From assembly GCA_000004985.1 (NCBI GenBank), contig GG738865.1: a stretch of 64,000 nt of DNA; one strand, 5' to 3'. Of this stretch, positions 13,410 through 64,000 are shown one piece after another. The notes under the pieces are model-generated. The model was not told the origin of the DNA, did no database searches, and saw only the letters and a program-made list of their open reading frames with translations. The position numbers and the translations under genes were made by a program. Position 1 is the first letter of the stretch; each line of letters starts with the position of its first letter. The stretch is from Naegleria gruberi. Lineage: Eukaryota.

Positions 13410-15455
13410 ATGCCTCCACCTCCTCCTTCAACATCTTCATCATCAACACCAAGAGGAAAGGCAATGCGATCTGCTTTTCTACCACCCGAAACCCCATTAT
13501 CAACCAAAATTAGAAAACCAATCAGGGCCACTCCTTCTTCTTCAACTTCCTCATCGACCAATGGCACTAAGCTACAAGAACAAGAACAGCTACAAGACCA
13601 ATGTATTAAAGTGTACATTAGAATTCGTCCGAACGATGATCATGACCAATTACAAATTGAATTTCTCAACAATTCTTCAATTCAAGTCACGTGTAAAAAT
13701 CAAGAAAAGGCAGATACACCAAAAGTATTCCTATTTGATCAGGTTTTGGATGAAAATGTTTCTCAGCAACAAGTTTTTGATTTGATTGGTGTTCCAGTTG
13801 TTGAAGAACTTCTTCAGGGGTTCAATGCTTCCATTTTAGGTTATGGACATACAGGATCTGGTAAAACATTTACAATGGGAACTAATCTTCATGAGATTGC
13901 AGATTCCTTTGAGAGTGGCAATTTGCCTGCTGCTTGTGGTTTATTGCCACGAATTGTTGAAAGGTTGCTAAACAGGAAGAAAGTGGACGAACAATTAAGC
14001 TGCTCCTTATTTGAAATTTATAATGGAGGAGTTTATGATTTATTTGGAGAGGCCAGCAAAAAGTGTAAGGTCAAGTATTCAAACGGTGTGGATGTTGTGA
14101 CCAATGCTAAAAAGAAGCTTATTCATTCACTGTCTGATCTTTCTTCCATTTCGTCTGGTTTAAAAAGGAGACATCAAAGTGCAACTGGACAAAATCTATC
14201 CTCATCAAGATCACACTGCATCTTTAGATTGTTTATCACAACTGCAGACAATACTGAAAGATGCCTAAACATGGTTGACTTGGCTGGATCTGAACGTCAA
14301 AAAACTGCCAACATTCACGCTGATAAAATGTTACTAGATGAAGCAAATTACATTAATACTTCATTGACAGTTTTGAAAAGATGCATTGAAGCAGTCTATA
14401 ATAATCAATCCAATACTGATAAGAAGACACTAGTTCCATACAGGGAAGATAATCTTGCCTTATTGTTGCATTCAACTTTGGAAGGAAATTCAAAAACTTT
14501 CTTTATTGGAAATATTGGAACTGCAAGTGAATCGATATCAACTTTGAATTATGCACAAACGGCAAGAAAGATTAAAAAGATGACTAGCAAGTTGAGTTCA
14601 ATGTTGAAGAAGAAATCAGGAGGATTGTTTGAAGAGGAAATTGAAAAGTTAAAGAAAGAGTTGGAAGAAACTAAGGGTAAATTGGATGAGGAAAGAGATA
14701 GCAAGACCAAACATATTGAAGAACTCTCACAGAAAATTGCATTATTAGAAACTAAACAACAGGAAGCTAATGAAATTCTCAAACAATCGAATACCATTAT
14801 AGAAGAGATGCAAATCAGAGACGATTCTCTGAAAGAAATTTGCTCAGAAAAAGAAGAAATTATTTCAAATCTCTTTGAAGAATTGTCAAAAGCCAGAAAA
14901 GAAAGCGAGCTCTTGGAGAAGGACAATTCAACATTGAAGAGTGAAAATTCAATTCTTTTGGAAGCAATTGAAAATCAATGTGAAATCATTAGACAACGAG
15001 ATAAGGAACATGATTCAGCTTTCCAAAATTTGAAAGAGCAACTAGACGAATATCAAAAACAGTCATCCTCAAAGACTCTTACAATTCAAACTCTGCGAGA
15101 TGAATTGAAAAAAAAGGACAAAATCATACAGAGAAAATCTTCAACTACTGCAGAACAACTTTATCAGACCATTGAAAATTTACTTAAAACAATTGAAGAT
15201 CAAAAGAAGACAATTCACATGTTTTTGAATGGAACGATGGAAGTTGTGGATATTGATAAGGAAGAAGCTCATGATGGTAATTCATGTGATAGTGATGATG
15301 ATGATGAGAAGGTGATGTCTGATTCTCCAGTTGTGAAATCAAACAAACGAAAGGTAATTTCTCCACTCCAAAATATTGTCTATGAATCAACAGATGAAAA
15401 TAATGAACCAGAATGTAAATATTCAAAATCTGATTTATTAGAATATTTAAAATAA
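13410..15455 (+). CDS. kinesin-like protein: N-terminal motor domain plus long C-terminal coiled coil, 681 aa
   Basis: Motor motifs: IKVYIRIRP, GYGHTGSGKTFTMG (P-loop), SSRSHCIFRLFI (switch I), VDLAGSERQ (switch II), INTSLTVLKRCIEA. Kinesin subfamily not assigned. Confidence 0.85.
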   Translation: MPPPPPSTSSSSTPRGKAMRSAFLPPETPLSTKIRKPIRATPSSSTSSSTNGTKLQEQEQLQDQCIKVYIRIRPNDDHDQLQIEFLNNSSIQVTCKNQEKADTPKVFLFDQVLDENVSQQQVFDLIGVPVVEELLQGFNASILGYGHTGSGKTFTMGTNLHEIADSFESGNLPAACGLLPRIVERLLNRKKVDEQLSCSLFEIYNGGVYDLFGEASKKCKVKYSNGVDVVTNAKKKLIHSLSDLSSISSGLKRRHQSATGQNLSSSRSHCIFRLFITTADNTERCLNMVDLAGSERQKTANIHADKMLLDEANYINTSLTVLKRCIEAVYNNQSNTDKKTLVPYREDNLALLLHSTLEGNSKTFFIGNIGTASESISTLNYAQTARKIKKMTSKLSSMLKKKSGGLFEEEIEKLKKELEETKGKLDEERDSKTKHIEELSQKIALLETKQQEANEILKQSNTIIEEMQIRDDSLKEICSEKEEIISNLFEELSKARKESELLEKDNSTLKSENSILLEAIENQCEIIRQRDKEHDSAFQNLKEQLDEYQKQSSSKTLTIQTLRDELKKKDKIIQRKSSTTAEQLYQTIENLLKTIEDQKKTIHMFLNGTMEVVDIDKEEAHDGNSCDSDDDDEKVMSDSPVVKSNKRKVISPLQNIVYESTDENNEPECKYSKSDLLEYLK

Positions 15456-15458
15456 AAA

Positions 15459-16529
15459 ATGGGAAATAGTCAACCAAGTAGAAATTTCACAAAAAATCAA
15501 TTAACAACACCAGTTTCCATTCCGATATTGTTTCTTATCGGAGATAAATCAAGTGGAAAGACGCAAACTATTCTTTCATATAACCACAGTTTCGAATTAA
15601 ACAGACGAACCCGACATTTAATTATTGAACTTTCGCGATGCATTCTTGGTTATGAAGCTCATCAAATTTCCAAGATTGACGAAAAACATTACAAAAGCAT
15701 TGCAAAAAAGTTAAAAAAAACTTGGAATTCCAAAAAGGAAAATTCTTTAAAATTCAACGCTGAAAATTTTAAAAGAAATTTAAATTATTTTGAAATTTCA
15801 ATTGAAAAACTTTTGGAAATTCTTGAAAAAATTGTAAAGGACGAATTTAGTACTGAATTGACCAATTCAGAAATTCAAATTATTGAACAAGCTCAACTAT
15901 TAATTCATCCATTTGCTTATTTCCTGGAAAATTGGTCAATTGGAACACAAACTAATCAATTAGTTGAATTATGTGCAATTCCAAGATCGAAATTATCACT
16001 TGATTCAGAAACATTTTCATGGATGAAAGAAAGAGAAAATTCTGTCGTTTTGGTTTTCATTTCATTGATTGGATGGTTGGATGAAACAGAGTATAATTTT
16101 CACAATTTTGATGAGATTGGAAAGGTGCTTGGACACGTTTCGAATAAGAAATTCGAATTTGTTTTTACAAAACCAGATCTGTTGTGGAAAATTCTGGCAA
16201 AAGGAGTGAAATATAAACATCAGGTGAAAGATACAAGAGCAGAGTTATTGGATATGGAAACTAAATACGGATTCGATCGAATAGTTAGCTCAATAATTTC
16301 AAAATACGAAACTGAACTACTGGCAGAATGCAATGATGCACAGAAACCTTTCAACTATCACATAGCAAGAACCAATTCATTGGACGAAATCTCAAAAGTG
16401 ATTGAAAGTGCCACTTCTGAATTTTCTCAATTTATTTCACCATTTATTATTCGAAAGACTTTATTCCAACCAGCACATTCCAATCAATTATTCTATTCAG
16501 ATCTATTAATATTGTGCATCTACCCTTAA
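15459..16529 (+). CDS. divergent G-alpha-like P-loop protein (356 aa): P-loop and NKxD-like motif retained, switch II degenerate
   Basis: The MGNSQPS N-terminus resembles a G-alpha start. ILFLIGDKSSGKTQTIL aligns with KLLLLGAGESGKSTIVK. EFVFTKPDLLWKIL aligns with IILFLNKKDLFEEKI. IARTNSLDE sits where TCATDT would be. No DVGGQR is seen (VLVFISLIGWLDE). Length fits a G-alpha. Assignment is tentative. Confidence 0.35.
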   Translation: MGNSQPSRNFTKNQLTTPVSIPILFLIGDKSSGKTQTILSYNHSFELNRRTRHLIIELSRCILGYEAHQISKIDEKHYKSIAKKLKKTWNSKKENSLKFNAENFKRNLNYFEISIEKLLEILEKIVKDEFSTELTNSEIQIIEQAQLLIHPFAYFLENWSIGTQTNQLVELCAIPRSKLSLDSETFSWMKERENSVVLVFISLIGWLDETEYNFHNFDEIGKVLGHVSNKKFEFVFTKPDLLWKILAKGVKYKHQVKDTRAELLDMETKYGFDRIVSSIISKYETELLAECNDAQKPFNYHIARTNSLDEISKVIESATSEFSQFISPFIIRKTLFQPAHSNQLFYSDLLILCIYP

Positions 16530-16883: not shown

Positions 16884-19162
16884 ATGAAGTGGTTCTCTAC
16901 TACACATGTGTTTTGTTTGTTGTTGATTTTGTTGGTAGTGGTAGAAAGTGAGTTGACAATTCTGTCAAGCGAAGATTTGGCATTTGACAGTTCCAGGAGT
17001 AATCAGAGTGTTATTGAAAGGAAATTATTATCAATTGACGAAAATATAAAGAGAATCAATATTTCTAACACAAATTTCCTTCAAAATTTAGCAAATGACA
17101 ATTGGCAGGTAATCGCATCAACTCAATCACTAGTAATTGTTAGTTTACAGAATTTAACAACCATTGATGATGTTCTTCTACTCGCATCACGTAAACTAAT
17201 TAAAATTGGTGTACACACTATTATTGGAATAGACATTAGGTTTGTGGAGACGAAACTTCAACTAAACTCGACGAAACACTTCTACAAGACTGAGAGAATG
17301 GACAGAACATCTTCTGATTGTTGGATGGGAAATGTTTTCGAATATTTCGATGTTGTAATTTCAAGTGATTTGTTTCTTCCAATTCTCATAAGACAAAATC
17401 GAGATTGTTATGTCACAACCCCAGTGTTTAGAACATTAGATTATCAAGATTTGAGTTTAGTTTCATTTTCTCCCTTTGAAATAGTAATAGCAAACTCAAA
17501 AGCATCATTTAATGATCTTGTCACCTATCAATATGAAATAATGAACGACATGTTCAAAAATTTACAAATTTCACAACAAGTTTGTGAATCAACGACAAGT
17601 TCATACAAGGAACATGATTATTCAGTGTTGAGAATTGAACAATTTTTCACAAATATTTCAGCGGATGATTTTTTATTTATTGTGGAATATCATGCGTTGG
17701 ATAATTGGACACTAAATCAAACATTTACTAATTTGGCATTTGAAATGGTGTTAAATAGAACTGGATATAGTGTTGATAAGCTCAATTCTATGAAAAGATC
17801 ATTCTTTCCCACAAAATGTTACTCCTGTCTAACGTCATCTTGTATGTGGGAAGACAGAGCTAGTCCAGTAGCTTCAAATGCAGATGGTGTCAGTATTGGA
17901 GGTGGTATCTCTCTATTCATTGCATTATTTTTCTATTTTCCTTCTTTAATTCTATTCAGAAACAGAGAATCGGTCAAGATTCGTCTCATTGTTCCATACG
18001 TTTCGGTTCTGAGTCCAGTTTTCATCATGTTGATTCAGATTTTTCAACTTATCAAGCCGTGTTATTTGCTCTATCAGATTGCTGTTAATTTTCTATCCTG
18101 TTGGTCGATTATCATTTATTTTTTGATTTGTATTCGATTCGTCTTGTTGAGAAATATTTATACGCTAGTTCTGTATCTTAATGAGAGACATATCAAGATT
18201 TTAAAATGGTTAGTGAGTAAGAGAGTTGCAAGTATTGGATCCTTTCTGATGGGTGTGTTGATTGGATGTTTAGTTTCCCTCGTTCCCCTTGTTGGATTTT
18301 ATGATGTAAGTTGTTATTCGAATCCCAAACTAAACATCTTCTTTGAAAATAGGAATTCTTTGGAAATCGTGCTGCCATACAATGTGCTTTCATCACCTTT
18401 GGAATCACTGTAGCCATTGCAACATTATCATTACTAGCACTTGTCATTCATTTCCTCTTCAAGATTCCAATAATTTGGAGAAGAGGTCTATTATATATTC
18501 TATTCTTTGATGATCCATTTCAAATCAAGTTTGATATTTTATTCTTCTCACTCAATACTATAGTCATTACAGTTTATTTATTCACAGAGGCGAATCAGAA
18601 TTATGTTTACAGTATTTTTGCACCACTCCTATCTCACAATATTGGAATGTTGTATAGAGGAGGTTTAGTTTTGATTATTGAATGGTTTAAAACGATTTAT
18701 TTTAGAAAACAACTGAATATGACTGAGAAGGAGAAAGTGGACGAATTGGTTCTTCATTTGGAAAATCCAGAATTCTTCAATTTAATGAAGGAATTTGTTG
18801 CAAAGGAAACTTCACTTGAGAACTTGAAATTTTACGAAGAATTGAAACAAATAGAAAGAATGAGTCAATCTGACAAGAATCCCAAAATCAGTCACGAAGA
18901 AATGATTCGAATAAGGGACAAGTACTTTAAAGAAAATGTTCTATACGAATTGAATATTGGAGGCCAAACTAAGCAATCGTTTCACAATCTCGTAGCAACA
19001 GCTGCAAATCCAAATGAAGAAGTTCGCCTTAAAGATTTGAAATTCATTCTCGATGAAGAATTGATGGGAAATTTGAGTGATGCCTATTTGAGATTGAAAC
19101 AACAACCAGGTTTTAAGAGATGGAAAGTAGCTCACAATATTTATATTGAGGAAAAGGAATAG
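16884..19162 (+). CDS. seven-transmembrane protein with C-terminal RGS domain: signal peptide, large ectodomain, 7 TM, RGS; 2 exons (16884-18305, 18353-19162), 47-nt intron
   Basis: The N-terminus is a cleavable-signal-like helix. Seven hydrophobic helices are split across a GTAAGT...AATAG intron that preserves the frame into ORF 18647-19162. The C-terminal 140 aa match the RGS box (LENLKFYEELKQ; IRDKYFKENVLYELNI; FILDEELMGNLSDAYLRLKQQPGF). Confidence 0.7.
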
Positions 19163-19448: not shown

Positions 19449-21133
19449 TTATTCGTCAGCAATTGCTTTCATATTTTTAATTTCTTCCTCGTGTTTCTCT
19501 CTCAATTCCTTCTTATTGAGCGATTTCTTAAGAATTGCCAAGAATAAGAAAGCTGGAATTAACCAAATAAATAAAACTAAAAGTAAGGTTTGAGGAAGTT
19601 TGAGTTTGGACAAGATACTATAAACACCACTGGTCACAGAAATTCCCAAATAGGTAAATGTTGAAAAGAAACCCATAAATTCACACTTCTTTTCCAATGG
19701 AATTAATTTGCTCATTAATCCACGAGCTACACTAGCATTCCATGCATATAAAAATCCAACAACCAGAAATTGAGCCAAAACAATGTACTTTTCCACTTTC
19801 ATTGAAATTGTAATAAATACTGAATTGAAGAAGAATTAGAAAATTCTCATTCAATTTGATTTGAAAACTTACTCGAAAGTGTTAAAACTCCAAAAAGTGA
19901 ATTTTGACCTGCCAAAACATAAATGTCATGAACCTTGAATAATTTCTCAAAAATTACACCTCCAATCACACCACCAACCATGGCAATCTTGAAATACAAG
20001 TTCAATAACACCTCCTGTTCAAGTCCAAAATTATAAATATCAATAAAAAGAGGTCCCAAATAAATTGTCACAACAGTACCAGCTGTGGAGAAGAATAAAT
20101 AGGAAAAGAGGAAAATCCAACAGTGATAGTATTGCTCATTCCTTCTCCAATGGATGAAGGTCTCAGCAAGTGATTTTAAAGATTTGGCAACCACTGCATA
20201 GACCTTTCCCAATCCTCTCAAATATTTTGGTAATTTGGAGAAACATTCAGGAATTTGCAAAGTTTGTGCTGTTTTGGCAGAAATTGGCTCTGGATTCAGA
20301 GTGACCTTATCTACACCATTTGGACTCAGAATGACAAACAGAGAGACCAGAATGGTGAGACTTGTGAAAACGAGAACCCACCAATTTTCTCTCGAAATAT
20401 CCCAAACTCCTCCCGAAAAAACACTCGAAGGTACAAAGGCCAATACCAATAATCCAACAAGATTGACACCAAATCCAATGAAATTACCCAACAAACTCAA
20501 AATCATCATATTCTTCTTATCAAAACAAGGTAAGAGAGCATTATTATTCATTACTGAAAATCTCAAAAAGAACATGGCCAATATATACACAATTTCACAA
20601 ATAGCCAAATGAGAAGTATAATCCTGTGGTGATTCATGTGGTAATTTATCAGTGAAAAACAATCCAATTGTTGCCAAAATACCCAAATACATTGTCACCA
20701 TCATTGAACTCCTAATTAATTTCAAATTATCAACCAAAGATCCCAAAATTGGCAATGTCAATGCACTTGCCAATGTTGTCACTGTATTAATAATTGAAAA
20801 TGCAGTAGAATACTCAGCTCCACTACCAGAAGCAACATTATGTAAAATCTTTGGATACAGAGCTGAATAGACAATTGTGTTCAACACATTAAAAACAATA
20901 CTAAACGATAACCATCCAATTGAACTTTTCACAACATGAAACAGTATCTGTGTTCTACTACTATGACCCATTCTATTCATTCCATTCTTAGCATCATCAT
21001 GTTCTGCATCATCATCATTCATCATTAATTGTTTTGATTCTTCATTATCAACAAATGATTGATCATGATGATCTATTGATTGAAAACGAGCATGATGATC
21101 ATATTCATCACCTCCATCTCCTCTTTGTATCAT
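19449..21133 (-). CDS. polytopic membrane transporter (MFS-like), 2 exons (21133-19873, 19819-19449), 53-nt intron, about 543 aa
   Basis: About 12 hydrophobic segments. The Asp/His-rich cytosolic N-terminus has no TM helices. A GTAAGT..TTCAG intron joins the 428-aa and 117-aa ORFs in frame. The family call is weak. Confidence 0.5.
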
Positions 21134-27521: not shown

Positions 27522-30500
27522 TCACTCGACCAAATCATCAATTACTTTTTCATTCTTTTCAACAAATCCTGGAATGCTCTTTTCACCAATACCAATTTTG
27601 GTGAGCTCGTTAATGGATTTGAATGGTCTGTGTTCGATAATCTTTTCAGCCTTTTTATCACCAATAGTGACAAGCCTCTTCAATTCTTTAACTTCATTTG
27701 ATTCATCATTGATATATTCCAATATCTTTTCAGCAGTTGAGCTACTCTTTAAAGATGCTGGTTTGGATTTTGTTGCTGTCTTTTTCTTTGGTTTCTCCTC
27801 TTCTTCATCTTCATCGACCATCTTGTCGTTGTTAACTTGTTTCTCCTCTTCTTCATCTTTGTAAAGTGCCTTGGTTCTTTCTTCATTCTTGATTCTTCTC
27901 TTCAACTTTTCAACCTTTCGTTGGAGTTTTTCATTTGTTGGGAGAAGAGCAAGAGCCTTTTCCAAGAGTTCCAAAGAACCTCTCTCATTACCTTCCTTCT
28001 TTAAAATGGCTGCTTCCTTAATGTGATTTCTTGCAAGAGCCAGTTTGTCCTCTTTCGTCAACATTCTTCCAGAATCCAATGTCAAATCCATGGACTTGTT
28101 AATGGCAAAAGTGCTAATCTCCAGAAGAGCTGCATTATCGAAGAATACTGCACCAGCTTCCTGCTTTGGTTTCTTTCCTCTTCTGACGGCCTTTGGCACA
28201 AAACTATTCTTTTTCTCCTCTTCTTCCACTTGCTCTTCTTGTTCATTTTCAGAATCAGAATCTTCTGCTGAAGATCTCTTTCTTTTTGGAGCAGTATTCT
28301 TCTTGGTAGCTTGTCTTGTCTTTGGCTTTTCCTTTACAGGAGAAGGTACATTGGTCTTGGTGTAAATGATGGATTCTTCGATTTTAGGATCAAAGATAAT
28401 TCCTTCCAATGGTTGTACTGGTTGTATTTTAACAGGTTTAGGAAGTGTAGTCTCTGTTGTGATCTTTTCAAGTAATGGTGAAGGAGTAATAATGATTGGT
28501 TGAACTGCAGTTGATGTCGACAATTCGTTATTCTTCTTTTCGAATAAATCATCTGTTGTAACATTCTCCAAACCTCCCAATATAGTGTGGAAATCATCAA
28601 CAGGGAAGAGTGTAATATCCTTCTCCTTGATTGGGGAAATTGCTGAAAGATCCAACTCTGGAAGGGTTGACTTAGTTGACGAACCTGGCTTAGTAATACC
28701 TCTTGATTGCAAGCTCTTTAACCTTTGATTTCTTGTTGGAGTTTTGTTATTTACATGATTAGGTTTTTGATTAGATAAATTAGTTTTTGGTTTTTGATCT
28801 GACAATGTTTGAGGTGATGGTACTTTTCTTTGTGCACTCAGGTTTAAGGTTGACTTGGTGTTTATCTTAGAGAGTGAGGTTGTCTTAGATGCAGCTAGTG
28901 ATGGTGTATTGTTGCTAGGTGTGGAAGGAACTTGATTTTCCTTTCCTAATTGCTTGTTGGCAAATGATGGTGTCGAATTCATAGTGTTGGTATTAAGAGT
29001 AGAGAGTGGAGCTCTGTTGGACGATGTTGCTTTGAAAGTCTTAGCCAAAGGTGTAGTGGTAGTAGATACAGATATCACTTTGCTCATTACAATCTCTGGT
29101 GTTCTTGAGTCCTTCTTGTTTGAGGACTTTGGAGCTTGGAATGAAGAGGTTGTTGGTTTAGGAGTAGTTGTTGATTGCTTTTGGAAGAGAGGTGGAGTTG
29201 GGAGCGAATTCATTGTCTTGACACTCATTGGGGTAGAGGAGCTCTTCTTTGTGGAAGTGAGTGGAGTTGAACCAACACTCTTAGCAGAGCTAGGAGTTGA
29301 GCTAGTTGATTTGGATGGAGTAATCTCGTCTAAATCATTTAACATGGCACTCAATTTTCTCTTCATGTCCATAAAATCTGAACCATCAGAACTGACCATT
29401 GTATTAGATGAAGTATTCGAAGCTCCTGTAAGTGCCAAATGTTCCAACTTGGCCAATCTATCCAAAATCTCATCTTGCAACGAAATACTCCTCTTCAAAA
29501 TTGGATTCAAAATGCCTTGTTTCAAATCTTCTTGTGCCTTCTCCAAGTCTTCTTTTGTTGCAAAATTGTTTGGAGCTAAAAGCATCATTTGGTTAATATA
29601 ATCAGCTCCAGACAGAGATTTAGATGTGGAGGTGACTCCAATCTTCTTTTGCGACATTAATTTTTCCTTTTCCAATTGCAAAAGTTTCAATTGTGTATCC
29701 TTATCAGCTCCATATCCTATGTTTGCCATATTTTCCAAGGCTTTTCTTTCTTCCTCATTTTCAAAGTAGCTGGCATTTATCACAGGCTTATTTACAATGG
29801 ATTGTGATTTCATACCAAATCTCAGGGATTTGTGAGTATCTACATAGTGTTCAGTAAATGGAGAAACATTGACAACCATGATTGCTTGAGAAGATCCACC
29901 GAGAGAATCTTGTAACAATCGTGTAAGTTTGCTGTCACGATACGAAACCTTTTGATTCTTGGAATTTAATTGATCTACAACCTTTCTCAAGCTGAATAAG
30001 GATGTATTGATACTACTCGATTCTGCCAACCTAGCACCAGTATTACCAGTCTTTCTATTATCTTCAGAACCAGCCAAATCTATTAAATTAATCTTACCAG
30101 TGAGCCATTGACCTGATCTAGGATCCTTATTTTTCACAGTAAGTGTTAAAATAGCATGAGATCGAGAAGATTGCACGTTGAGTTTCGTTGAGGCAACCTT
30201 CCTATTCTTCATACCCACTTGATAAAATTCCTCACAAAATCCATCATAGGACGTTATTGATTTGATAGTTAGTCCCTTAACAATAATATTCTTACTCTTA
30301 TCTTCATGGAGAGGTAAATCCTTTCCAAGAGATGTGGTTGAATCTTTCGAAGAAACCAACAAGTCAAAGACCTTCTCGTTATAAATCTCCAAGTAGGAAA
30401 CAGATAATTTACAGAGTGGAGCAGAACTATCTGGGCCCTTTCTCCTTTCCACTTCAAATAATAATTGTTGTACTGTTCGAGGAATAAGGCCCATATTTTC

Positions 30501-30977
30501 CAAAGTTTCACCACCCTGCATGGTGTGAGTTTTACCACTTCCAGTCATACCATAGCAAAACACTGTTGTATTAAAACCATCAAAGAGAGTGTCCACTATT
30601 GGTATTATTTCGTTTTGGAAGATTTCATCTTGTGTGGAGGATTCATCATAGGTGGCATCGAATTCAAAACGAATTTCATCGCCAGGATTTCTTGGATCCT
30701 TCATGTACACTATATTGTTCAATGATTGTTGTTGTTGTTGTTCTGATTTGCCAACACGACATGTTTGAAAGCCTGATTTTTCAACTTCACTGGGCAGAAG
30801 AGGTCGGATACGAGAGGCAACTCTTACCTTTCTTCCACCTGTTGTTGATGTGTTATTATTACTAGTAGTGGTGGTGCTGTTGTTGGATATTGATAAACTT
30901 AATGATGGCGAATCGTTGTGTACCATAAAATTTGCCGAGCAACCACGAGGACTCTTTGCAATGCACTGTGTTGACAT
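27522..30977 (-). CDS. KIF22: chromokinesin (Kid/kinesin-10-like): N-terminal motor, Ser/Thr/Pro-rich stalk, TPR-like helical segment, C-terminal helix-hairpin-helix DNA-binding motif; about 1151 aa from ATG (MSTQC...)
   Basis: Motor motifs: RVASRIRPL, FCYGMTGSGKTHTM, SSRSHAILTLTV, LIDLAGSEDNRKTG, HVDTHKSLRFGMKS. The C-terminus (LKRLVTIGDKKAEKIIEHRPFKSINELTKIGIGEKSIPGFVEKN) resembles the HhH of Kid. The first ATG is at about 30977, downstream of the track's TTG start. Confidence 0.8.
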   Translation of the reverse strand: MSTQCIAKSPRGCSANFMVHNDSPSLSLSISNNSTTTTSNNNTSTTGGRKVRVASRIRPLLPSEVEKSGFQTCRVGKSEQQQQQSLNNIVYMKDPRNPGDEIRFEFDATYDESSTQDEIFQNEIIPIVDTLFDGFNTTVFCYGMTGSGKTHTMQGGETLENMGLIPRTVQQLLFEVERRKGPDSSAPLCKLSVSYLEIYNEKVFDLLVSSKDSTTSLGKDLPLHEDKSKNIIVKGLTIKSITSYDGFCEEFYQVGMKNRKVASTKLNVQSSRSHAILTLTVKNKDPRSGQWLTGKINLIDLAGSEDNRKTGNTGARLAESSSINTSLFSLRKVVDQLNSKNQKVSYRDSKLTRLLQDSLGGSSQAIMVVNVSPFTEHYVDTHKSLRFGMKSQSIVNKPVINASYFENEEERKALENMANIGYGADKDTQLKLLQLEKEKLMSQKKIGVTSTSKSLSGADYINQMMLLAPNNFATKEDLEKAQEDLKQGILNPILKRSISLQDEILDRLAKLEHLALTGASNTSSNTMVSSDGSDFMDMKRKLSAMLNDLDEITPSKSTSSTPSSAKSVGSTPLTSTKKSSSTPMSVKTMNSLPTPPLFQKQSTTTPKPTTSSFQAPKSSNKKDSRTPEIVMSKVISVSTTTTPLAKTFKATSSNRAPLSTLNTNTMNSTPSFANKQLGKENQVPSTPSNNTPSLAASKTTSLSKINTKSTLNLSAQRKVPSPQTLSDQKPKTNLSNQKPNHVNNKTPTRNQRLKSLQSRGITKPGSSTKSTLPELDLSAISPIKEKDITLFPVDDFHTILGGLENVTTDDLFEKKNNELSTSTAVQPIIITPSPLLEKITTETTLPKPVKIQPVQPLEGIIFDPKIEESIIYTKTNVPSPVKEKPKTRQATKKNTAPKRKRSSAEDSDSENEQEEQVEEEEKKNSFVPKAVRRGKKPKQEAGAVFFDNAALLEISTFAINKSMDLTLDSGRMLTKEDKLALARNHIKEAAILKKEGNERGSLELLEKALALLPTNEKLQRKVEKLKRRIKNEERTKALYKDEEEEKQVNNDKMVDEDEEEEKPKKKTATKSKPASLKSSSTAEKILEYINDESNEVKELKRLVTIGDKKAEKIIEHRPFKSINELTKIGIGEKSIPGFVEKNEKVIDDLVE

Positions 30978-31594
30978 TTTTTTGGTTCTTATTTTCTTCA
31001 ACGGTTTGTGTTTTGAATTTTTGGCGGGAAGAAGTTGAACGAATGAATTGGGTTTATTGCAAAATCAAGGCTAGCTTGGTGTAGTTCCATGTCATCAGCT
31101 TGGGAATTAAATGCTCTAATTACTCCTCATTTAGGATTGATTCCTCTTGCATGTTAAATCAAGGTGAGCCAAATATTCAAGATTCTTTGCTGAGAAGATA
31201 GAGGTTGAGTGTACCAAAGTTTTTATTTTGGTGGTTCCATCCAGACAATACCACGTCTACATTTAAAATGTAACGGCTAGTTTGTTTGATATCATAATGA
31301 TTGAAGAATAATATCAACACCTATATAATATGTTCTTCTTTACCATCACCTTCATCTAATTACGAATTCTGCTCAGTACACAACTTCTTGATGTGATTGA
31401 AACCTAATATTTGTGCTCAATCCTTGTGGTTCCATTTACATCTTGTATCTATTTTCAAACCGACGCGCCAAAATTTCGATCCTCTTCCAAGTTTACAAAA
31501 AACTGTTATTCATTTTACTCAGAAAAAATAAATTCAACCTTCGTCACAGTCAGCAACAACCAAATCAACAAAGAAAAAAACAACAACATCAAAA
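30978..31594. promoter_or_regulatory. shared divergent intergenic/promoter region between the chromokinesin (-) and histone H2B (+) genes
   Basis: About 620 bp AT-rich spacer between two divergently oriented start codons. No element-level motif assigned. Confidence 0.4.
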
Positions 31595-34217: not shown

Positions 34218-36179
34218 ATGTTCAAACAATTCCCAGCAGATGTACTTCCCCATCTGTTTAGTTTTTTCTCTCTGAGAGAAATCTATTATAATCTCCAATT
34301 TGTTAGCAAGGAATGGCTAGAAATTGCCAACGTACCTAATGAATATAACAAAGTACGAAGAAGAAACAATGTTGGTGGAGGAGACAATAGTGATAATGGT
34401 TATCATCAGTCGTGGTCAATTTATTTGGTTTCGTCATTCAGAAGTGGAAAGCAATTTAAAGAAATTAATCGAATGATGAGTGATTTGGAGAGCGATGCTT
34501 CTGATGAGGAAATTTCAAGGGCCATGTGGGATGATCAACATACACAATTGATCTTTTCATGTATTGAAGGAAAGATGGTGCATGGCTTGCATGCTGGTAA
34601 TCCACTTGTTAAAAAGGATGGTATTGGTGAAATGATCAAATCAATGCAATTCCTCTATGGAGTTCATTATGATAAGGAGCTTGTTAAGAGAATTGTTTCA
34701 GATAGTAACTCAATCAAGTCATGTCTCTATGTAGAGAATGAAGAATTTGCTAAAAACTTTCAAGAAAGAGTGGTTGAAAATGGTAGCGGTTTAAGTGATC
34801 TGAAGGAAAAGTTCTATTTTATGGATTTGTGTTATTTGGACTCCTCTTTGAAAAATGTTAGTGATGAGGTATTCATTTACAAAATATTTGAGAGGGTGTT
34901 TTCTTTGGATTTAGATAACGATTGGTCCAATGTATTTCCCTGTATTCGAAAATGCAAATTATTGAAACAGAAACTAGAAAAATGTAATGGAGAAACTATT
35001 AGAAAAATGTTTCAAATTGAAATGGAGATTGCCTTGAAAATGTTACTCAATATTCTCAAGTGGGGTTACCATCTATCTGATTTGAACTTTCTATACTCCT
35101 TTGCAAGTTATTGTAAATTCACACAAAGCCAATCTGAAGAGATAGTGAAATTGTCTGATTCTCTTATTAATGAAATTAATAGAGTTGTATTGATTGAAGA
35201 AGTGGTACTCACTCCAATCATTGAAGATGACTACATCTCCACCAGCATATTGGATCAGTTCAAGAATAACAAACTTATTGAAATGGTCAACCAAAATAAT
35301 GCACATCCACTCGAAGAAATCGAATATAGAAATCTCTATACTAACACATCTTGCTTTTTAAAATTTCTTCATAGAAAATTTTCAATAGGAGAAATGTTTA
35401 GAACAACAATTAACAAAAGAAAAAAGCTACTAGATGCAGAGAATAGATTGAATGGATATTTCGTTTTTTGCATTGTCAACCAGAGAGACATGGAAAAGAG
35501 AGCAAAATTTTTGGAAAAGATTGAACAGGCATTTATTTATGCAACTGAGCTGAGGGATTTCAGAACTGCTTTCTTTTTCTCGACTCTATTGAATAATGCT
35601 TGTGTTTATAGATTACGTAAAACTCGTGAACACGTGGATAGATCAAGTAATTTCAAAAATCTGTTCGAGGAGAGCCAGAAAACAATTTCTTCAGACGGAA
35701 ATTATAGAAAATTATACCAAACTGTTGAAAAATATGCCAAAGAAGCCAATATTCCAATGTAAGTTTGTAATTTCTGGTTAATTCGATTCAACTCATTATG
35801 GTATATTGATAGCCATCTTCCATTGACAAATTTAACGTTTGTTATTGAAGGAAACTCAAATCAAATTACTATTCTCTTTTTGAGTTACAGATTTATAGCA
35901 CAATTTGGAAGATCATTGAGGATACCATCTAAACTTGGTAACTATGAGAGGAATTTATTCGATAAGAAAACTATTAAAATTATTGACAAGAAGGGAGTTA
36001 AGCATTCAATCAAATCATTTTTTGAAGGAGATGATGATACTTCACACATGCATTATGAACTACAAGCTGATCAACAAGTGTTGGAACTTTTTGTTTTCAT
36101 TGCATTTAATTTCCAACTAAAAGAAGATTCAGAGTTGTACAAAATGAGTTTAGAATGTGAACCAAGACAAGCCAAATAA
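34218..36179 (+). CDS. F-box-like N-terminus fused to RasGEF (CDC25-homology) domain; 2 exons (34218-35759, about 35879-36179)
   Basis: N-terminus FPADVLPHLFSFFSLREIYYNLQFVSKEWLEIAN is an F-box-like motif. The C-terminal half carries RasGEF blocks (FRTAFFFSTLLNNACVYRLRKTREHV; exon 2 FIAQFGRSLRIPSKLGNYERNLFDKKTIKI). The donor is at ATGTAAGT and the acceptor TTACAG continues the frame into ORF 35823-36179. Confidence 0.55.
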
Positions 36180-45011: not shown

Positions 45012-45083
45012 TCCCGTGTGGTCCAATGGCTAAGATACCTGGCTCTCACCCAGGAGATCCGGGTTCAATTCCCGGCACGGGAG
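45012..45083 (+). tRNA. trnE-CUC: tRNA-Glu (anticodon CUC), 72 nt
   Basis: TCCCGTG/CACGGGA acceptor stem; anticodon stem CCTGG/CCAGG; loop CTCTCAC (CUC at positions 34-36, U33, A37); T-arm CCGGG-TTCAATT-CCCGG. The layout is nearly superimposable on known eukaryotic tRNA-Glu(CTC). No intron. Confidence 0.9.
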
Positions 45084-54055: not shown

Positions 54056-55279
54056 TTAAATATTGAGTACACGAAGTTTTTCAGCTTTTGGAACAGTGTG
54101 GATCAAGACACGACCATCATAAGATACAGTACCAAAGGTCCAGCTGTTAGTATTACTCCAACAAAGAGAGTAGACACTTTCTTCATGTTCATCATATGTG
54201 TGAACAAGGTTATCAAACAATTCCTCCTTCTTTGGTTTGGATTTTTCTTCTTCAGATGCTTGTAATTCTTCGTCTAATTCTTGCTCTTTTGCCTTTGATG
54301 AAATTGAGGCAATAGACCATAAATTTACCTTACTGTCAGTACTTCCTGTCAAAATCAATTGATCATATTGTGGATTAAATCTGACTTTGGAAATCCAGTG
54401 TGAATGACCTCCTAAAACCAACAATGGTTCCTTCGTCGAACGAATATCCCAAAACTTTACAAAGCAGTCATCACCACAAGTTGCCAATCTGTACATATGA
54501 TATGGATTGTATTGGACATCCCTAACCATTTGGTCATGAGCAATAAATTCAACATTCTTCTTATTATTCTTTTCTCTCAAGTCAACTTGGATGACCTTTC
54601 CTTGGGCAGCAACAGCAATAATTTCTGAATGATGAGGATCCCAAGCACCAGTTCTTAATCTTCTTCCACCCAAATCATACTTGTTAACAAATTTACATGT
54701 TTTTTCAAATCTAAATTCTCTCAAACATTTTTCATCGATTGAAATTACACGATCACTAGTTCCATTTTGATCCCATAATATTTCGTGTACTCTTTCATTA
54801 TCAAATTGTTTGGCATCTAATTTTGACAGAGTTTCCAAATTATTGGTATTATTACTTTCCAATTCTTCTCCAACATCTGATTGTCCTGCTTGTTCCGAAT
54901 ATGTTGACATTCCGTATAGTGCTGCTTCAAAACCATTTTTAATGGTATTATATGTTGTGAAGAAATATTTTGGTTTTGATGGATGTGGACTAATCGACCA
55001 AACTTCGTGTTGATGTGAAAAAGCAGCTTGACAAAAAACATCATTTTCTTCCTCGTTAAATTCAATAAGATGGACTTCATTGTTGGCATTCAGAGCACAA
55101 GTTCCTACAAGAAATCTATTATTTTGAGTATCACCTTTTACCGCAGCCATACATCTACTCTTGTTTAAACGTTGACCATAGATTGCAGAGGTGTGTCCGT
55201 GACTATCCTGTTGTGATGCTGATGAGGCTGTGTAATCACTGTGTGATCGTAAATGTCCTCTTGTGTTGGATCTTTTCAT
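54056..55279 (-). CDS. EIPR1: WD40-repeat protein EIPR1/TSSC1-like (407 aa)
   Basis: Colinear with EIPR1/TSSC1 (FLVGTCALNANNEVHLIEFNEEEN; ATCGDDCFVKFWDIRSTKEPLLVLGGHSHWISKVRFNPQYDQLILTGSTDSKVNLWSI; YDEHEESVYSLCWSNTNSWTFGTVSYDGRVLIHTVPKAEK). Confidence 0.8.
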   Translation of the reverse strand: MKRSNTRGHLRSHSDYTASSASQQDSHGHTSAIYGQRLNKSRCMAAVKGDTQNNRFLVGTCALNANNEVHLIEFNEEENDVFCQAAFSHQHEVWSISPHPSKPKYFFTTYNTIKNGFEAALYGMSTYSEQAGQSDVGEELESNNTNNLETLSKLDAKQFDNERVHEILWDQNGTSDRVISIDEKCLREFRFEKTCKFVNKYDLGGRRLRTGAWDPHHSEIIAVAAQGKVIQVDLREKNNKKNVEFIAHDQMVRDVQYNPYHMYRLATCGDDCFVKFWDIRSTKEPLLVLGGHSHWISKVRFNPQYDQLILTGSTDSKVNLWSIASISSKAKEQELDEELQASEEEKSKPKKEELFDNLVHTYDEHEESVYSLCWSNTNSWTFGTVSYDGRVLIHTVPKAEKLRVLNI

Positions 55280-63400: not shown

Positions 63401-64000
63401 GATTTCAACATGTTGGGAACAACTGAACAATTCTTGAGTAAGGTCATGGATATTCCAAGACTCGAAGAAAGATTAGAAAGTTGGTTGATCAAACTCAAAT
63501 TCCCTGCCAGTGTTTCCTCAATTGAACCAGATATTGAAACTATCATTTCTTGTTGCAAACAATTACAACAAGGTAAAAAATTCCACAAAGTTTTGCAAGT
63601 CATTTTGGCTATTGGTAACTTTATCAATGGTAACAAGAAGGCAGTTCACGGTTTCCAAATCAATGCCCTTCCAAAGTTGAAGGACACAAAGGCAACAGGT
63701 GCTAAGATTAATATGCTCGATTATATTGTTCAATTTTTGGAGAAGAATCATCCAGAAACTCTCAATTTTGGTGATGACCTTTCTGCTCTTAAGGGTGCTG
63801 AAAGAGTTTCAATTCAAGGTATCACTTCTGAATTGAATGAAATGAAGAATGGTGTCAATTTTGTTGGTAGAGAAATTGAAAAGTCAGATTTAGACACAGA
63901 ATTCGACAAGTTTAGAGAAGTCATGGTTGACTTTTTAGATTTTGCCTCTGAAAAGGTTGAAACATTCGAAAATCAAATTAAGGAAATGCAAACTCAAATT
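60477..64000 (+). CDS. diaphanous-related formin (GBD/FH3, coiled coil, Gly-rich linker, FH1 poly-Pro, FH2), 3'-truncated by the window end; intron about 61127-61244; unresolved frame break at about 62597-62706
   Basis: N-terminal FH3-like region (PEYIVHRLKDEPTLGSVTELISLLKGAKSEDWIRKFLDLQGLECLFQIL). FH1 repeats (IPLPPGMGVPPPPGMGIPPPPGMGGIPPPPG...). FH2 region (AVMKGVFWSKVPVQQLKDSIWIK...VLGSMRLDHDDIKLSMLRMDEGVL...ILAIGNFINGNKKAVHGFQINALPKLKDTKA) is open to position 64000 in a frame absent from the ORF track. Confidence 0.85.

What the first reader, a model, noticed from the sequence alone, without database searches (positions are those of the whole stretch)
15459..16529. Divergent G-alpha-like P-loop protein with degenerate switch II, immediately upstream of a 7TM-RGS gene
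The protein has G-alpha length (356 aa), an MG... N-terminus, a P-loop placed as in G-alpha (LFLIGDKSSGKTQ vs LLLLGAGESGKST), an NKxD-like motif (FVFTKPDLL vs FLNKKDLF) and a TCAT-position block. The DVGGQR switch II and RxxTxGI switch I are not recognisable. If it is a G-alpha derivative it is probably GTPase-impaired. Its co-orientation and adjacency (gap about 350 bp) to a gene encoding a 7TM protein with an RGS box recalls the plant GPA1/RGS1 module and suggests a co-functioning signalling pair.
Basis: partly seen in the sequence, partly recalled or inferred. Interest (0 to 1): 0.6.

Follow-up and report, generated by a model that had tools for sequence, protein, structure and literature searches.

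The report
Degenerate, unannotated G-alpha paralogue in Naegleria
This is an intact but unannotated Naegleria gruberi gene for a badly eroded G-protein alpha subunit that keeps its nucleotide-binding motifs but has lost its GTPase switch regions, so it adds one member to a gene expansion already known in this amoeba and is probably not a working partner of the 7TM-RGS gene next to it.

Summary
Window 15459-16529 (+) is an intact 356-codon ORF in a Naegleria gruberi NEG-M scaffold. It has coding-type codon usage, and a 7TM-RGS gene lies 354 nt downstream on the same strand. The ORF is absent from the annotated proteome and has no Pfam hit.

An exhaustive search of 1.84 billion proteins found two relatives, both from N. 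gruberi. One is an uncharacterised paralogue, EFC44932 (E 6e-16). The other is EFC44299 (E 4e-4), a bona fide Pfam G-alpha (3e-42). A profile of target plus paralogue scores 54.6 bits on EFC44299 and 26.2 bits on a second G-alpha, P0013.

All four share clade-specific features: [STV]KPD in place of NKxD, an insertion after it, and a C-terminal FISP...SD[IL] extension. The protein is therefore G-alpha-derived.

It keeps Walker A (GDKSSGKT), the G4 block and an all-helical insert. It has lost switch I (Arg, Thr, Gly), switch II (DxxGQ) and the Ras-G12-equivalent glycine. It is most likely a pseudo-GTPase that cannot be a canonical RGS substrate.

Given the more than 100 RGS genes counted in N. 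fowleri, the adjacency is weak evidence for pairing. Verdict: a new member of a known kind, of modest interest.

The parts
15459..16529 (+). Intact 356-aa ORF encoding the G-alpha-derived protein. It is not present in the annotated N. gruberi protein set.
   Evidence: ORF coordinates. Chance and codon-usage tests. Absent from the protein collections. Homologues.
15540..15563 (+). G1 / Walker A, GDKSSGKT (residues 28-35). The GxxxxGK[ST] pattern is kept. The Gly equivalent to Galpha-i1 G42 / Ras G12 is Lys30, and the Glu43 equivalent is Ser31.
   Evidence: SSGKTQTIL (residues 31-39) is one of the two longest identical runs between target and paralogue. The role of this Gly is described in PMC9283941.
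15636..15923 (+). All-helical insertion (about residues 60-155) between the P-loop/alpha1 and the next beta strand, at the position of the G-alpha helical domain.
   Evidence: Both AF2 runs predict only helices here. Lys34 to Asp240 spans 206 residues, against 226 in Galpha-i1 (the Galpha-i1 numbering is from my own knowledge). hhalign of the N-terminal half against G-alpha is collinear but weak, E 1.3e-3.
15924..16043 (+). Degenerate switch I / beta3 / switch II region (residues 156-195). It has no RxxTxGI. 'LCAIPRSK' sits where 'VDVGGQRS' is in canonical G-alpha. Trp188 is retained at the switch II Trp position.
   Evidence: Alignment to EFC44299 (LVTAGGKKMERRRW) and P0013 (IDVGGRRNERKKW). 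This is the least conserved stretch between target and paralogue, with 1-3 identities per 15 residues.
16152..16184 (+). G4 block FEFVFTKPDLL (residues 232-242). TKPD replaces NKxD.
   Evidence: This is the longest identical run with the paralogue. EFC44299 has SKPD and P0013 has VKPD at the same column.
16359..16373 (+). G5-position block HIART (residues 301-305), in place of TCAT.
16416..16526 (+). C-terminal extension (residues 320-356, '...SQFISPFIIRK...YSDLLIL...'). It replaces the canonical receptor-coupling tail. It is shared with the paralogue and with the G-alphas EFC44299 and P0013.
15453..15461 (+). Junction with the upstream kinesin gene, TAA AAA ATG. The kinesin stop codon is in frame with the start codon and only 3 nt upstream of it.
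16884..19162 (+). Downstream 7TM-RGS gene. Exon 1 is 16884-18305, the intron 18306-18352 and exon 2 18353-19162. It encodes 743 aa. The RGS box covers about 18758-19009.

Best explanation
The ORF is a real gene that the annotation of Naegleria gruberi missed. It encodes a strongly degenerate paralogue of the heterotrimeric G-protein alpha subunit. It belongs to a Naegleria-specific G-alpha subclade defined by [STV]KPD instead of NKxD, an insertion after G4, and a C-terminal FISP...SD[IL] extension.

Shown here:
- It keeps the G-alpha layout: Ras-like domain, all-helical insert, Walker A, a G4 Lys/Asp pair and a G5-like block.
- These nucleotide-contact blocks are the best conserved parts between the two deep paralogues.
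- It has lost the switch I Arg/Thr/Gly, the switch II DxxGQ and the P-loop Gly equivalent to Ras G12. It has no predicted alphaN helix.

Inferred:
- It may still bind guanine nucleotide.
- It cannot hydrolyse GTP or undergo the GTP-dependent switch.
- It cannot form the canonical interfaces with G-beta-gamma or with RGS boxes.
- It therefore acts, if at all, as a pseudo-GTPase, meaning a constitutive binder or scaffold, possibly at a membrane.
- Its position next to a 7TM-RGS gene is most likely coincidental in a genome crowded with RGS genes.
For: Real gene: ORF length, codon usage and frame specificity.

Homology:
- The only two hits in 1.84 billion proteins are N. gruberi EFC44932 (E 6e-16) and EFC44299 (E 4e-4).
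- EFC44299 is Pfam G-alpha at 3e-42 and hits solved G-alphas at 1e-13. P0013 is Pfam G-alpha at 2e-54.
- The target+paralogue profile scores 54.6 and 26.2 bits on them, against shuffle maxima of 8.3 and 11.9.
- hhalign gives 96.8% probability, E 2.9e-10.
- The alignment against canonical G-alpha is in register: FTKPDLL aligns with FLNKxDI, and HIAR with H.T.AT.

Shared derived characters are visible in the alignment.

Structure:
- The AF2 model built on an 8-sequence alignment has pLDDT 59.7 and pTM 0.60, with G-alpha topology.
- The top 36 Foldseek PDB hits are all G-alpha, E down to 6e-5.

Motif state.

Conservation pattern: SSGKTQTIL and FEFVFTKPDLL are the two longest identical runs at 31% overall identity, and the switch region is the least conserved.

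Functional reading of the lost residues:
- The switch I Gly is required for RGS action in Naegleria.
- The P-loop Gly is required for hydrolysis or activation.

Genome background:
- Degenerate catalytic motifs in some of the 44 N. gruberi G-alphas are already reported (PMC8584482).
- N. fowleri has 28 7TM-RGS genes and 80 other RGS genes.
Against: - No direct significant match to canonical G-alpha. The assignment rests on two intermediates from the same genome.
- The significant alignments cover only the C-terminal about 60% of the protein. Homology of the helical insert is weak, at E 1.3e-3 pairwise.
- There is no expression evidence. The ATG lies 3 nt after the kinesin stop codon, which leaves no room for a promoter.
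- No orthologue was found in annotated N. fowleri or N. lovaniensis proteins.
- Nucleotide binding is an inference only.
Confidence: 0.7

Rival explanations
1. The G-alpha-like protein and the adjacent 7TM-RGS receptor form a dedicated signalling pair, as AtGPA1 and AtRGS1 do in plants or the 7TM RGS and G-alpha pairs do in N. fowleri. The RGS box would act on the G-alpha-like protein, or bind it as a non-hydrolysing decoy or anchor.
For: - The two genes are co-oriented with a 354-nt gap.
- Naegleria G-alphas do engage 7TM-RGS proteins (PMC9283941).
- By alignment to RGS14, the RGS box keeps the E-N pair and the Asn of 'ELNIG' at Galpha-contact positions (the role of these positions is from my own knowledge of RGS4).
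Against: - Switch I (Thr, Gly) and switch II (Gly, Gln), which form the RGS-binding surface, are absent.
- A single Gly-to-Ser change in switch I already abolishes RGS action on Naegleria G-alphas.
- N. fowleri Galpha6 and Galpha1, which deviate much less, bind no RGS domain.
- There are about 108 RGS genes in N. fowleri and 44 G-alphas in N. gruberi. With about 15,700 genes (my own knowledge), roughly 0.1-0.2 chance adjacencies of a G-alpha to a 7TM-RGS gene are expected, and about 0.6 to any RGS gene.
- No RGS gene was seen in the 1.3 kb upstream of the paralogue in contig L001.
Confidence: 0.1
2. The ORF is a non-functional relic: a duplicated G-alpha copy that landed directly behind the kinesin gene, is not independently expressed, and is on the way to becoming a pseudogene.
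For: - It is not annotated.
- The start codon is 3 nt after the kinesin stop, with no upstream spacer.
- All catalytic motifs are eroded.
- No orthologue was found in other Naegleria proteomes.
- In an environmental strain the paralogue carries a deletion of about 106 nt that shifts the frame and removes G5 and the C-terminus.
Against: - A 356-codon open frame in 32% GC DNA (P about 1e-12) with gene-like codon usage.
- It is only 31% identical to its closest paralogue, so it has stayed open through long divergence.
- Conservation is concentrated in the nucleotide-binding blocks, which is not the pattern expected from neutral drift.
- The MGN.Q start is conserved.
Confidence: 0.15
3. It is an unrelated P-loop NTPase, such as an AAA-type, GPN-loop or other TRAFAC GTPase, that resembles G-alpha only by chance.
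For: - Pfam gives only sub-threshold hits, for example AAA_22 at E 0.19.
- The GPN-loop GTPase Npa3 appears at Foldseek rank 37.
Against: - The only significant sequence relatives outside the paralogue are Pfam G-alphas.
- The alignment is collinear and in register across beta3, alpha2, beta4, alpha3, beta5 (G4), alpha4, beta6 (G5), alpha5 and a clade-specific tail.
- An all-helical insert of about 100 residues sits exactly at the G-alpha position.
Confidence: 0.02

Closest known systems
N. gruberi divergent G-alphas EFC44299 (NAEGRDRAFT_49275) and P0013, both Pfam PF00503-positive 'predicted proteins'
   Same: - Same genome.
- They share [STV]KPD in place of NKxD.
- They share the insertion 'KGVKY..QV' after G4.
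- They share the 'SSII..YE' and 'YH[IV]' blocks.
- They share the C-terminal FISP...SD[IL] extension.
- In EFC44299, P0013 and the paralogue EFC44932 the P-loop Gly42 equivalent is Ser; in the target it is Lys.
   Different: They still pass the Pfam G-alpha threshold (3e-42 and 2e-54). They also keep a recognisable switch II (AGGKKMERRRW; DVGGRRNERKKW), and P0013 keeps switch I RTTGI. The target has lost all of these.
N. gruberi EFC44932 (NAEGRDRAFT_48704, UniProt D2VDP2), annotated 'predicted protein', on the same scaffold
   Same: It is the closest relative, at E 6e-16 and 31-32% identity. It has the same MGN.Q start, an identical SSGKTQTIL and FEFVFTKPDLL, HIAR.N, the same tail, no Pfam hit and no switch motifs.
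   Different: It lacks the switch II Trp and has two short insertions. Its NCBI model starts at an internal Met. It carries a frameshifting deletion in an environmental strain.
Catalytically deviant G-alphas: plant extra-large G proteins (XLG), some Dictyostelium and Naegleria G-alphas, and N. fowleri Galpha6
   Same: All are G-alpha folds in which the catalytic motifs deviate, with reduced or lost nucleotide-dependent activity (PMC8584482). Nf Galpha6 shows no detectable nucleotide exchange and no RGS binding.
   Different: Nf Galpha6 can still be activated by GDP plus AlF4-, and all N. fowleri G-alphas keep the switch II Trp and the switch I Gly. From my own knowledge, XLGs still bind G-beta-gamma and have long N-terminal extensions. 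Here both switches are unrecognisable and the N-terminus is short.
AtRGS1-AtGPA1 and N. fowleri 7TM RGS-Galpha modules
   Same: A 7TM protein with a C-terminal RGS box is encoded next to a G-alpha-family gene.
   Different: In the known modules the G-alpha is a self-activating, hydrolysis-competent GTPase that the RGS box contacts through the switch regions. Here those regions are gone. The known partners are also not defined by gene adjacency.

Membership tests
Heterotrimeric G-protein alpha subunit (Pfam PF00503) | Significant match to the family profile or to solved G-alphas | tested here: not met
   No PF00503 hit at E<=1. phmmer and the target+paralogue profile find no G-alpha in the PDB. 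A small G-alpha HMM gives 2.6 bits, reached by 43 of 2000 shuffles. hhalign against canonical G-alphas plus P0013 gives probability 9%, E 0.0036.
Heterotrimeric G-protein alpha subunit (Pfam PF00503) | Common descent with bona fide members, shown through intermediate sequences | tested here: met
   E 4e-4 to EFC44299 in a library of 1.84 billion proteins. The profile scores 54.6 and 26.2 bits on two Pfam-positive G-alphas, against shuffle maxima of 8.3 and 11.9. hhalign gives 96.8% probability, E 2.9e-10.
Heterotrimeric G-protein alpha subunit (Pfam PF00503) | G1 P-loop G-A-G-E-S-G-K-S-T | tested here: inconclusive
   The Walker A pattern GDKSSGKT is present and conserved with the paralogue. 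However, the Gly42 equivalent is Lys and the Glu43 equivalent is Ser. Changes at this Gly impair hydrolysis or activation.
Heterotrimeric G-protein alpha subunit (Pfam PF00503) | All-helical domain inserted between alpha1 and switch I | tested here: met
   The 206-residue spacing from the P-loop Lys to the G4 Asp. Helices only at about residues 47-158 in both the single-sequence and the alignment-based AF2 models. Foldseek alignments of about 350 columns to full-length G-alphas. Sequence homology of the insert itself is only weak, at E 1.3e-3, but collinear with the LW.D and PT..D motifs.
Heterotrimeric G-protein alpha subunit (Pfam PF00503) | Switch I RxxTxGI (catalytic Arg, Mg-binding Thr, RGS-contact Gly) | tested here: not met
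   Residues 150-170, 'HPFAYFLENWSIGTQTNQLVE', contain no Arg or Lys and no TxGI.
Heterotrimeric G-protein alpha subunit (Pfam PF00503) | Switch II DxxGQ (gamma-phosphate Gly, catalytic Gln) | tested here: not met
   'ELCAIPRSK' aligns to 'VDVGGQRSE' and to 'LVTAGGKKM'. Only the downstream Trp188 is kept.
Heterotrimeric G-protein alpha subunit (Pfam PF00503) | G4 NKxD and G5 TCAT guanine-recognition motifs | tested here: inconclusive
   TKPD keeps the Lys and Asp but has Thr in place of Asn. IART sits in place of TCAT. The same [STV]KPD is found in the Pfam-positive clade members.
Heterotrimeric G-protein alpha subunit (Pfam PF00503) | N-terminal lipidated alphaN helix for G-beta-gamma and membrane binding | tested here: not met
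   MG is present, but the PROSITE myristoylation pattern (PS00008, recalled from memory) fails because of Pro at position +5. The paralogue passes it. Only 22 residues precede beta1, two of them Pro, and they are predicted disordered with pLDDT 33-37.
Heterotrimeric G-protein alpha subunit (Pfam PF00503) | GTP binding and hydrolysis | not testable with these tools
   This needs recombinant protein assays.
7TM-RGS / G-alpha module (AtRGS1-GPA1; N. fowleri 7TM RGS-Galpha) | The partner is a 7TM protein with a C-terminal RGS box | tested here: met
   The 743-aa model has a signal peptide, about 7 hydrophobic segments (six hydrophobic peaks in the scan between residues 338 and 554, plus a weaker seventh at about 560-585 read by eye) and RGS PF00615 at E 2e-7.
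7TM-RGS / G-alpha module (AtRGS1-GPA1; N. fowleri 7TM RGS-Galpha) | The G-alpha presents the canonical RGS-binding switch surface | tested here: not met
   Switch I and II motifs are absent. The switch I Gly is essential for RGS action in Naegleria.
7TM-RGS / G-alpha module (AtRGS1-GPA1; N. fowleri 7TM RGS-Galpha) | Demonstrated physical or functional interaction, or conserved linkage | not testable with these tools
   The genomic context of the paralogues in NEG-M could not be fetched. The only flank seen, in L001, shows no RGS gene.
Pseudo-GTPase (GTPase fold without catalytic motifs) | GTPase fold with loss of the catalytic G2 and G3 residues | tested here: met
   Fold. Motif loss. Whether it binds nucleotide cannot be tested here.

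The most novel reading that the evidence does not exclude
The G-alpha-like ORF is expressed from the kinesin mRNA itself. The two ORFs are in the same frame and are separated only by TAA AAA. Stop-codon read-through would therefore give a 1039-aa kinesin fused to a G-alpha-like domain. Termination-reinitiation would give a bicistronic message. Either way a motor protein would be coupled to a nucleotide-locked G-alpha-like module, which might in turn dock on the neighbouring 7TM-RGS receptor as a non-hydrolysing partner.
Probability: 0.06. Interest if true: 0.65.

Novelty: new member of a known kind. Interest (0 to 1): 0.3.

Why it matters
The practical value lies in annotation.
- An intact gene was missed in the N. 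gruberi reference set.
- Its paralogue EFC44932 can now be labelled G-alpha-derived, and its NCBI start codon appears to be wrong.
- The Naegleria G-alpha expansion therefore reaches below the detection limit of Pfam, so published counts (44 in N. gruberi) are underestimates.

Biologically, four proteins form a graded series of switch II decay within one clade of one genome:
1. P0013: DVGGR.
2. EFC44299: TAGGK.
3. The target: CAIPR.
4. EFC44932: LVST.

This series would be a convenient natural set for asking what a G-alpha scaffold does once the GTPase switch is lost. It opens no new principle. Degenerate G-alphas and 7TM-RGS signalling in Naegleria have both been described already.

Tried and rejected
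- The word-indexed homologue search with the target found nothing, not even the target itself. An exact look-up of the target also found nothing. This shows the ORF is unannotated.
- Pfam on the target gave only noise.
- phmmer and the two-sequence profile against the PDB gave no G-alpha.
- The single-sequence AF2 model was unusable, at pLDDT 40.
- The third homologue search, with a four-sequence profile, returned only EFC44299 because of the candidate cap.
- Positional look-ups for the kinesin, EFC44932, EFC44299 and P0013 failed. The neighbours of the paralogues in NEG-M could therefore not be checked for RGS genes.
- A scan of JGI metagenome contigs with the family's conserved peptides found no relatives.
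- The afdb50 fold library was unavailable.
- The Anantharaman et al. 2011 paper is not held. No paper mentions the locus tags.
- I considered a spliced kinesin-G-alpha fusion using GT at 15415 and AG at 15468-15469. By hand-reading it is out of frame and runs into a stop, so I rejected it.
- I considered the terminal 'CIYP' as a CaaX prenylation box. It is not conserved in the paralogue or in the clade, so I did not rely on it.
Full report
**What the window is.** Ten long ORFs of the window were looked up by exact sequence. Seven were found, and each belongs to a Naegleria gruberi (strain NEG-M) protein cluster on one 820-kb scaffold: six as the GenBank entry itself and one (54059-55279) as an ENA copy clustered with EFC45057. 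A second look-up matched five more ORFs to clusters holding N. gruberi entries. The ORF just upstream of the finding is kinesin EFC44949. The window has about 33% GC and is gene-dense with few introns.

- At this base composition a 357-codon stop-free run has P about 1e-12. Fifty shuffles of the window never gave a run longer than 173 codons.
- Codon usage is gene-like only in this frame: +0.25 bits per codon, against -0.25 to -0.54 in the other five frames and 0.25-0.56 for nine annotated genes.
- All the quoted motifs are present: MGNSQPS, LFLIGDKSSGKTQ, FVFTKPDLL and HIART. DVGGQ and RxxTxGI are absent.
- The downstream gene starts 354 nt later on the same strand. I modelled it as two exons, 16884-18305 and 18353-19162, joined across a 47-nt GTAAGT...AG intron. 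This gives 743 aa with a signal peptide, an ectodomain of about 310 aa, about seven hydrophobic segments (six hydrophobic peaks in the scan, plus a weaker seventh read by eye) and a C-terminal RGS box (Pfam PF00615, E 2e-7).

**The ORF is not annotated.**
- Neither the word-indexed search, nor exact look-ups, nor an exhaustive phmmer of 1.84 billion representative proteins returned the protein itself. Its neighbours are all present.
- GenBank numbering leaves a single plus-strand entry (EFC44950) between the kinesin and EFC44951. That entry must be the 7TM-RGS gene.

**What is it related to?** Pfam gives nothing, and the PDB gives nothing by sequence. The exhaustive search gave exactly two hits.
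- P0010 (E 6e-16, 31% identity) clusters with N. gruberi EFC44932 (NAEGRDRAFT_48704), a 'predicted protein' on the same scaffold. It has no Pfam hit.
- P0011 (E 4e-4) is N. gruberi EFC44299 (NAEGRDRAFT_49275). It is a clear G-alpha: Pfam PF00503 at 3e-42, and solved G-alphas at down to 8e-14.
- A search seeded with EFC44299 added a second N. gruberi G-alpha, P0013 (Pfam 2e-54), and four canonical G-alphas.

**How strong is the link to G-alpha?**
- An HMM of target plus paralogue scores 54.6 bits on EFC44299 and 26.2 bits on P0013. The best of about 900 scored shuffles (of 1000 made) of each scored 8.3 and 11.9 bits. The canonical G-alphas score about -1 bit.
- Profile-profile comparison gives 96.8% probability (E 2.9e-10) when EFC44299 is in the G-alpha profile. 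Without it the figure is only 9% (E 0.0036), although the alignment stays in register: FVFTKPDLL on LFLNKxDI, and HIAR on H.T.AT.
- The link to G-alpha is therefore real but transitive.

**Shared derived characters.** The multiple alignment shows what ties the four Naegleria proteins together and separates them from canonical G-alpha:
- [STV]KPD instead of NKxD.
- A 5-residue insertion after it (KGVKY..QV; EARYQRQV; NGVKYGGEL).
- The 'SSII..YE' and 'YH[IV]' blocks.
- A C-terminal extension of about 30 residues, FISP.I...SD[IL], that replaces the usual receptor-coupling tail.
- Ser at the position of Galpha-i1 Gly42 (Ras Gly12) in EFC44299, P0013 and the paralogue EFC44932, and Lys in the target.

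**Motif by motif.**
- G1: GDKSSGKT satisfies Walker A.
- Switch I: absent. Residues 150-170 contain no Arg or Lys and no TxGI.
- Switch II: shows a graded decay within the clade. P0013 has IDVGGRRNERKKW, EFC44299 has VTAGGKKMERRRW, the target has LCAIPRSKLSLDSETFSW and EFC44932 has LVLVSTNIFKL. Only Trp188 survives in the target.
- G4: TKPD keeps the Lys and Asp.
- G5: IART in place of TCAT.
- Spacing from the P-loop Lys to the G4 Asp is 206 residues. It is about 226 in Galpha-i1 and about 100 in small GTPases (both figures from my own knowledge). A large insert is therefore present.
- Both AF2 runs predict that insert to be purely helical. hhalign of the N-terminal half aligns it collinearly with the G-alpha helical domain, placing KKTW on LW.D and LTNSE on PT..D, but only at E 1.3e-3.

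**Structure.**
- The single-sequence model was poor, at pLDDT 40.
- With an 8-sequence alignment the model reached pLDDT 59.7 and pTM 0.60. Its topology is beta1, P-loop, alpha1, helical block, beta, alpha2, beta4, alpha3, beta5, alphaG, alpha4, beta6, alpha5.
- Foldseek against the PDB returned only G-alphas in the first 36 places, E down to 6e-5, with alignments of about 350 columns.
- Because the input alignment contained G-alphas, this is supporting evidence and not independent proof.

**What still seems to be under constraint?** Target and paralogue are 31% identical overall.
- The two longest identical runs are SSGKTQTIL (P-loop and start of alpha1) and FEFVFTKPDLL (beta5 and G4), followed by HIAR (G5).
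- The switch region has only 1-3 identities per 15 residues.
- This pattern fits a protein that still uses its nucleotide pocket but no longer uses the switch. That reading is an inference.

**Consequences for mechanism.** In N. fowleri, RGS boxes of 7TM-RGS proteins act on G-alphas through the canonical interface.
- A switch I Gly-to-Ser mutation abolishes GAP activity, and binding is selective for the AlF4- transition state (PMC9283941).
- P-loop changes at the Gly42-equivalent region slow hydrolysis and abolish RGS engagement.
- The target lacks all of these elements. It also lacks a predicted alphaN helix: only 22 residues, two of them Pro, precede beta1, and they are predicted disordered.
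- I therefore infer no GTP hydrolysis, no GTP-driven switch, no canonical RGS interaction and no canonical G-beta-gamma interaction. In other words, it is a pseudo-GTPase.

**Is the adjacency to the 7TM-RGS gene meaningful?**
- N. fowleri encodes 28 7TM-RGS proteins plus 80 other RGS proteins. N. gruberi has 44 recognised G-alphas (PMC8584482).
- With about 15,700 genes (my own knowledge), roughly 0.1-0.2 chance adjacencies of a G-alpha-like gene to a 7TM-RGS gene are expected, and about 0.6 to any RGS gene.
- The adjacency is therefore only weakly suggestive, and the missing switch surfaces argue against a GAP-substrate relation.
- I could not retrieve the neighbourhoods of the paralogues. 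The one short contig carrying the paralogue from an environmental strain shows no RGS gene in its flanks.

**Relation to what is known.**
- Lineage-specific G-alpha expansion in N. gruberi, and deviation of catalytic motifs in some of its members, are both in the literature (PMC3971589; PMC8584482).
- So is 7TM-RGS signalling in Naegleria (PMC9283941).
- What is new is limited. This particular gene is unannotated, it and EFC44932 are too eroded for Pfam, and they can be tied to a specific subclade.
- I therefore rate it as a new member of a known kind.

**Open oddity.** The ATG lies 3 nt after the kinesin stop codon, and the two ORFs share a reading frame (TAA AAA ATG).
- Other tandem gaps in the window are 100-350 nt.
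- The paralogue has its own upstream spacer of about 180 nt and the same MGN.Q start, so a stand-alone start is ancestral.
- How the target is transcribed remains unexplained.
- A candidate GT...AG intron that would splice the two ORFs is out of frame (hand reading).

Noticed in passing
window 15453-15461: The kinesin stop codon and the start of the G-alpha-like ORF are separated by 3 nt and lie in the same frame (TAA AAA ATG). Read-through of one stop would give a 1039-aa fusion. AATAAA at 15451-15456 overlaps the stop. Other tandem gene gaps in the window are about 100-350 nt.
   Followed up: partly
window 15459-16529: This intact ORF, with gene-like codon usage, is absent from the NCBI, UniProt and EukProt N. 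gruberi protein sets. It appears to be a gene missed by the reference annotation.
   Followed up: yes
L001 1326-2318 (ENA ERZ929261 contig, paralogue of the target): In an environmental N. gruberi-like strain the paralogue differs from NEG-M EFC44932 by 4 substitutions over 268 compared residues. It also lacks about 106 nt encoding 'IISSII...HIARANLLNE'. This shifts the frame and truncates the protein before G5, so it is either a pseudogene in that strain or an assembly artefact.
   Followed up: partly
L001 1326-1412 versus EFC44932 (P0012): The NCBI model of EFC44932 starts at an internal Met (MVGGSSSGKT...). The contig shows 29 further in-frame codons beginning MGNKQATQ, which matches the target's MGNSQ start and the PROSITE myristoylation pattern. 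The annotated start is probably wrong.
   Followed up: partly
window 16884-19162: My two-exon 743-aa model of the 7TM-RGS gene (47-nt intron at 18306-18352) is not identical to any protein in the collection. The deposited model (presumably EFC44950) must therefore differ. The ectodomain of about 310 aa has no Pfam match.
   Followed up: partly
window 16515-16526: The target ends in ...LCIYP. 'CIYP' superficially resembles a CaaX prenylation box, but it is not conserved in the paralogue or in the related G-alphas.
   Followed up: no
window 19449-21133 (-): Two adjacent minus-strand ORFs (117 aa with a sub-threshold MFS_1 match of 26.4 bits against a cut-off of 33.4, and 428 aa with no Pfam hit) look like exons of one gene for a multi-pass membrane transporter, split by a short intron.
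   Followed up: no
window 27525-31001 (-), 34218-35759 (+), 60477-64000 (+): There are further cytoskeleton and signalling genes nearby. They include a second kinesin with a sub-threshold C-terminal helix-hairpin-helix match (HHH_3, 25.9 bits against a cut-off of 27), a RasGEF (CDC25) protein (EFC44953) and a diaphanous-related formin (EFC44961).
   Followed up: no
window 45012-45083 (+): A single tRNA-Glu(CTC) gene.
   Followed up: no
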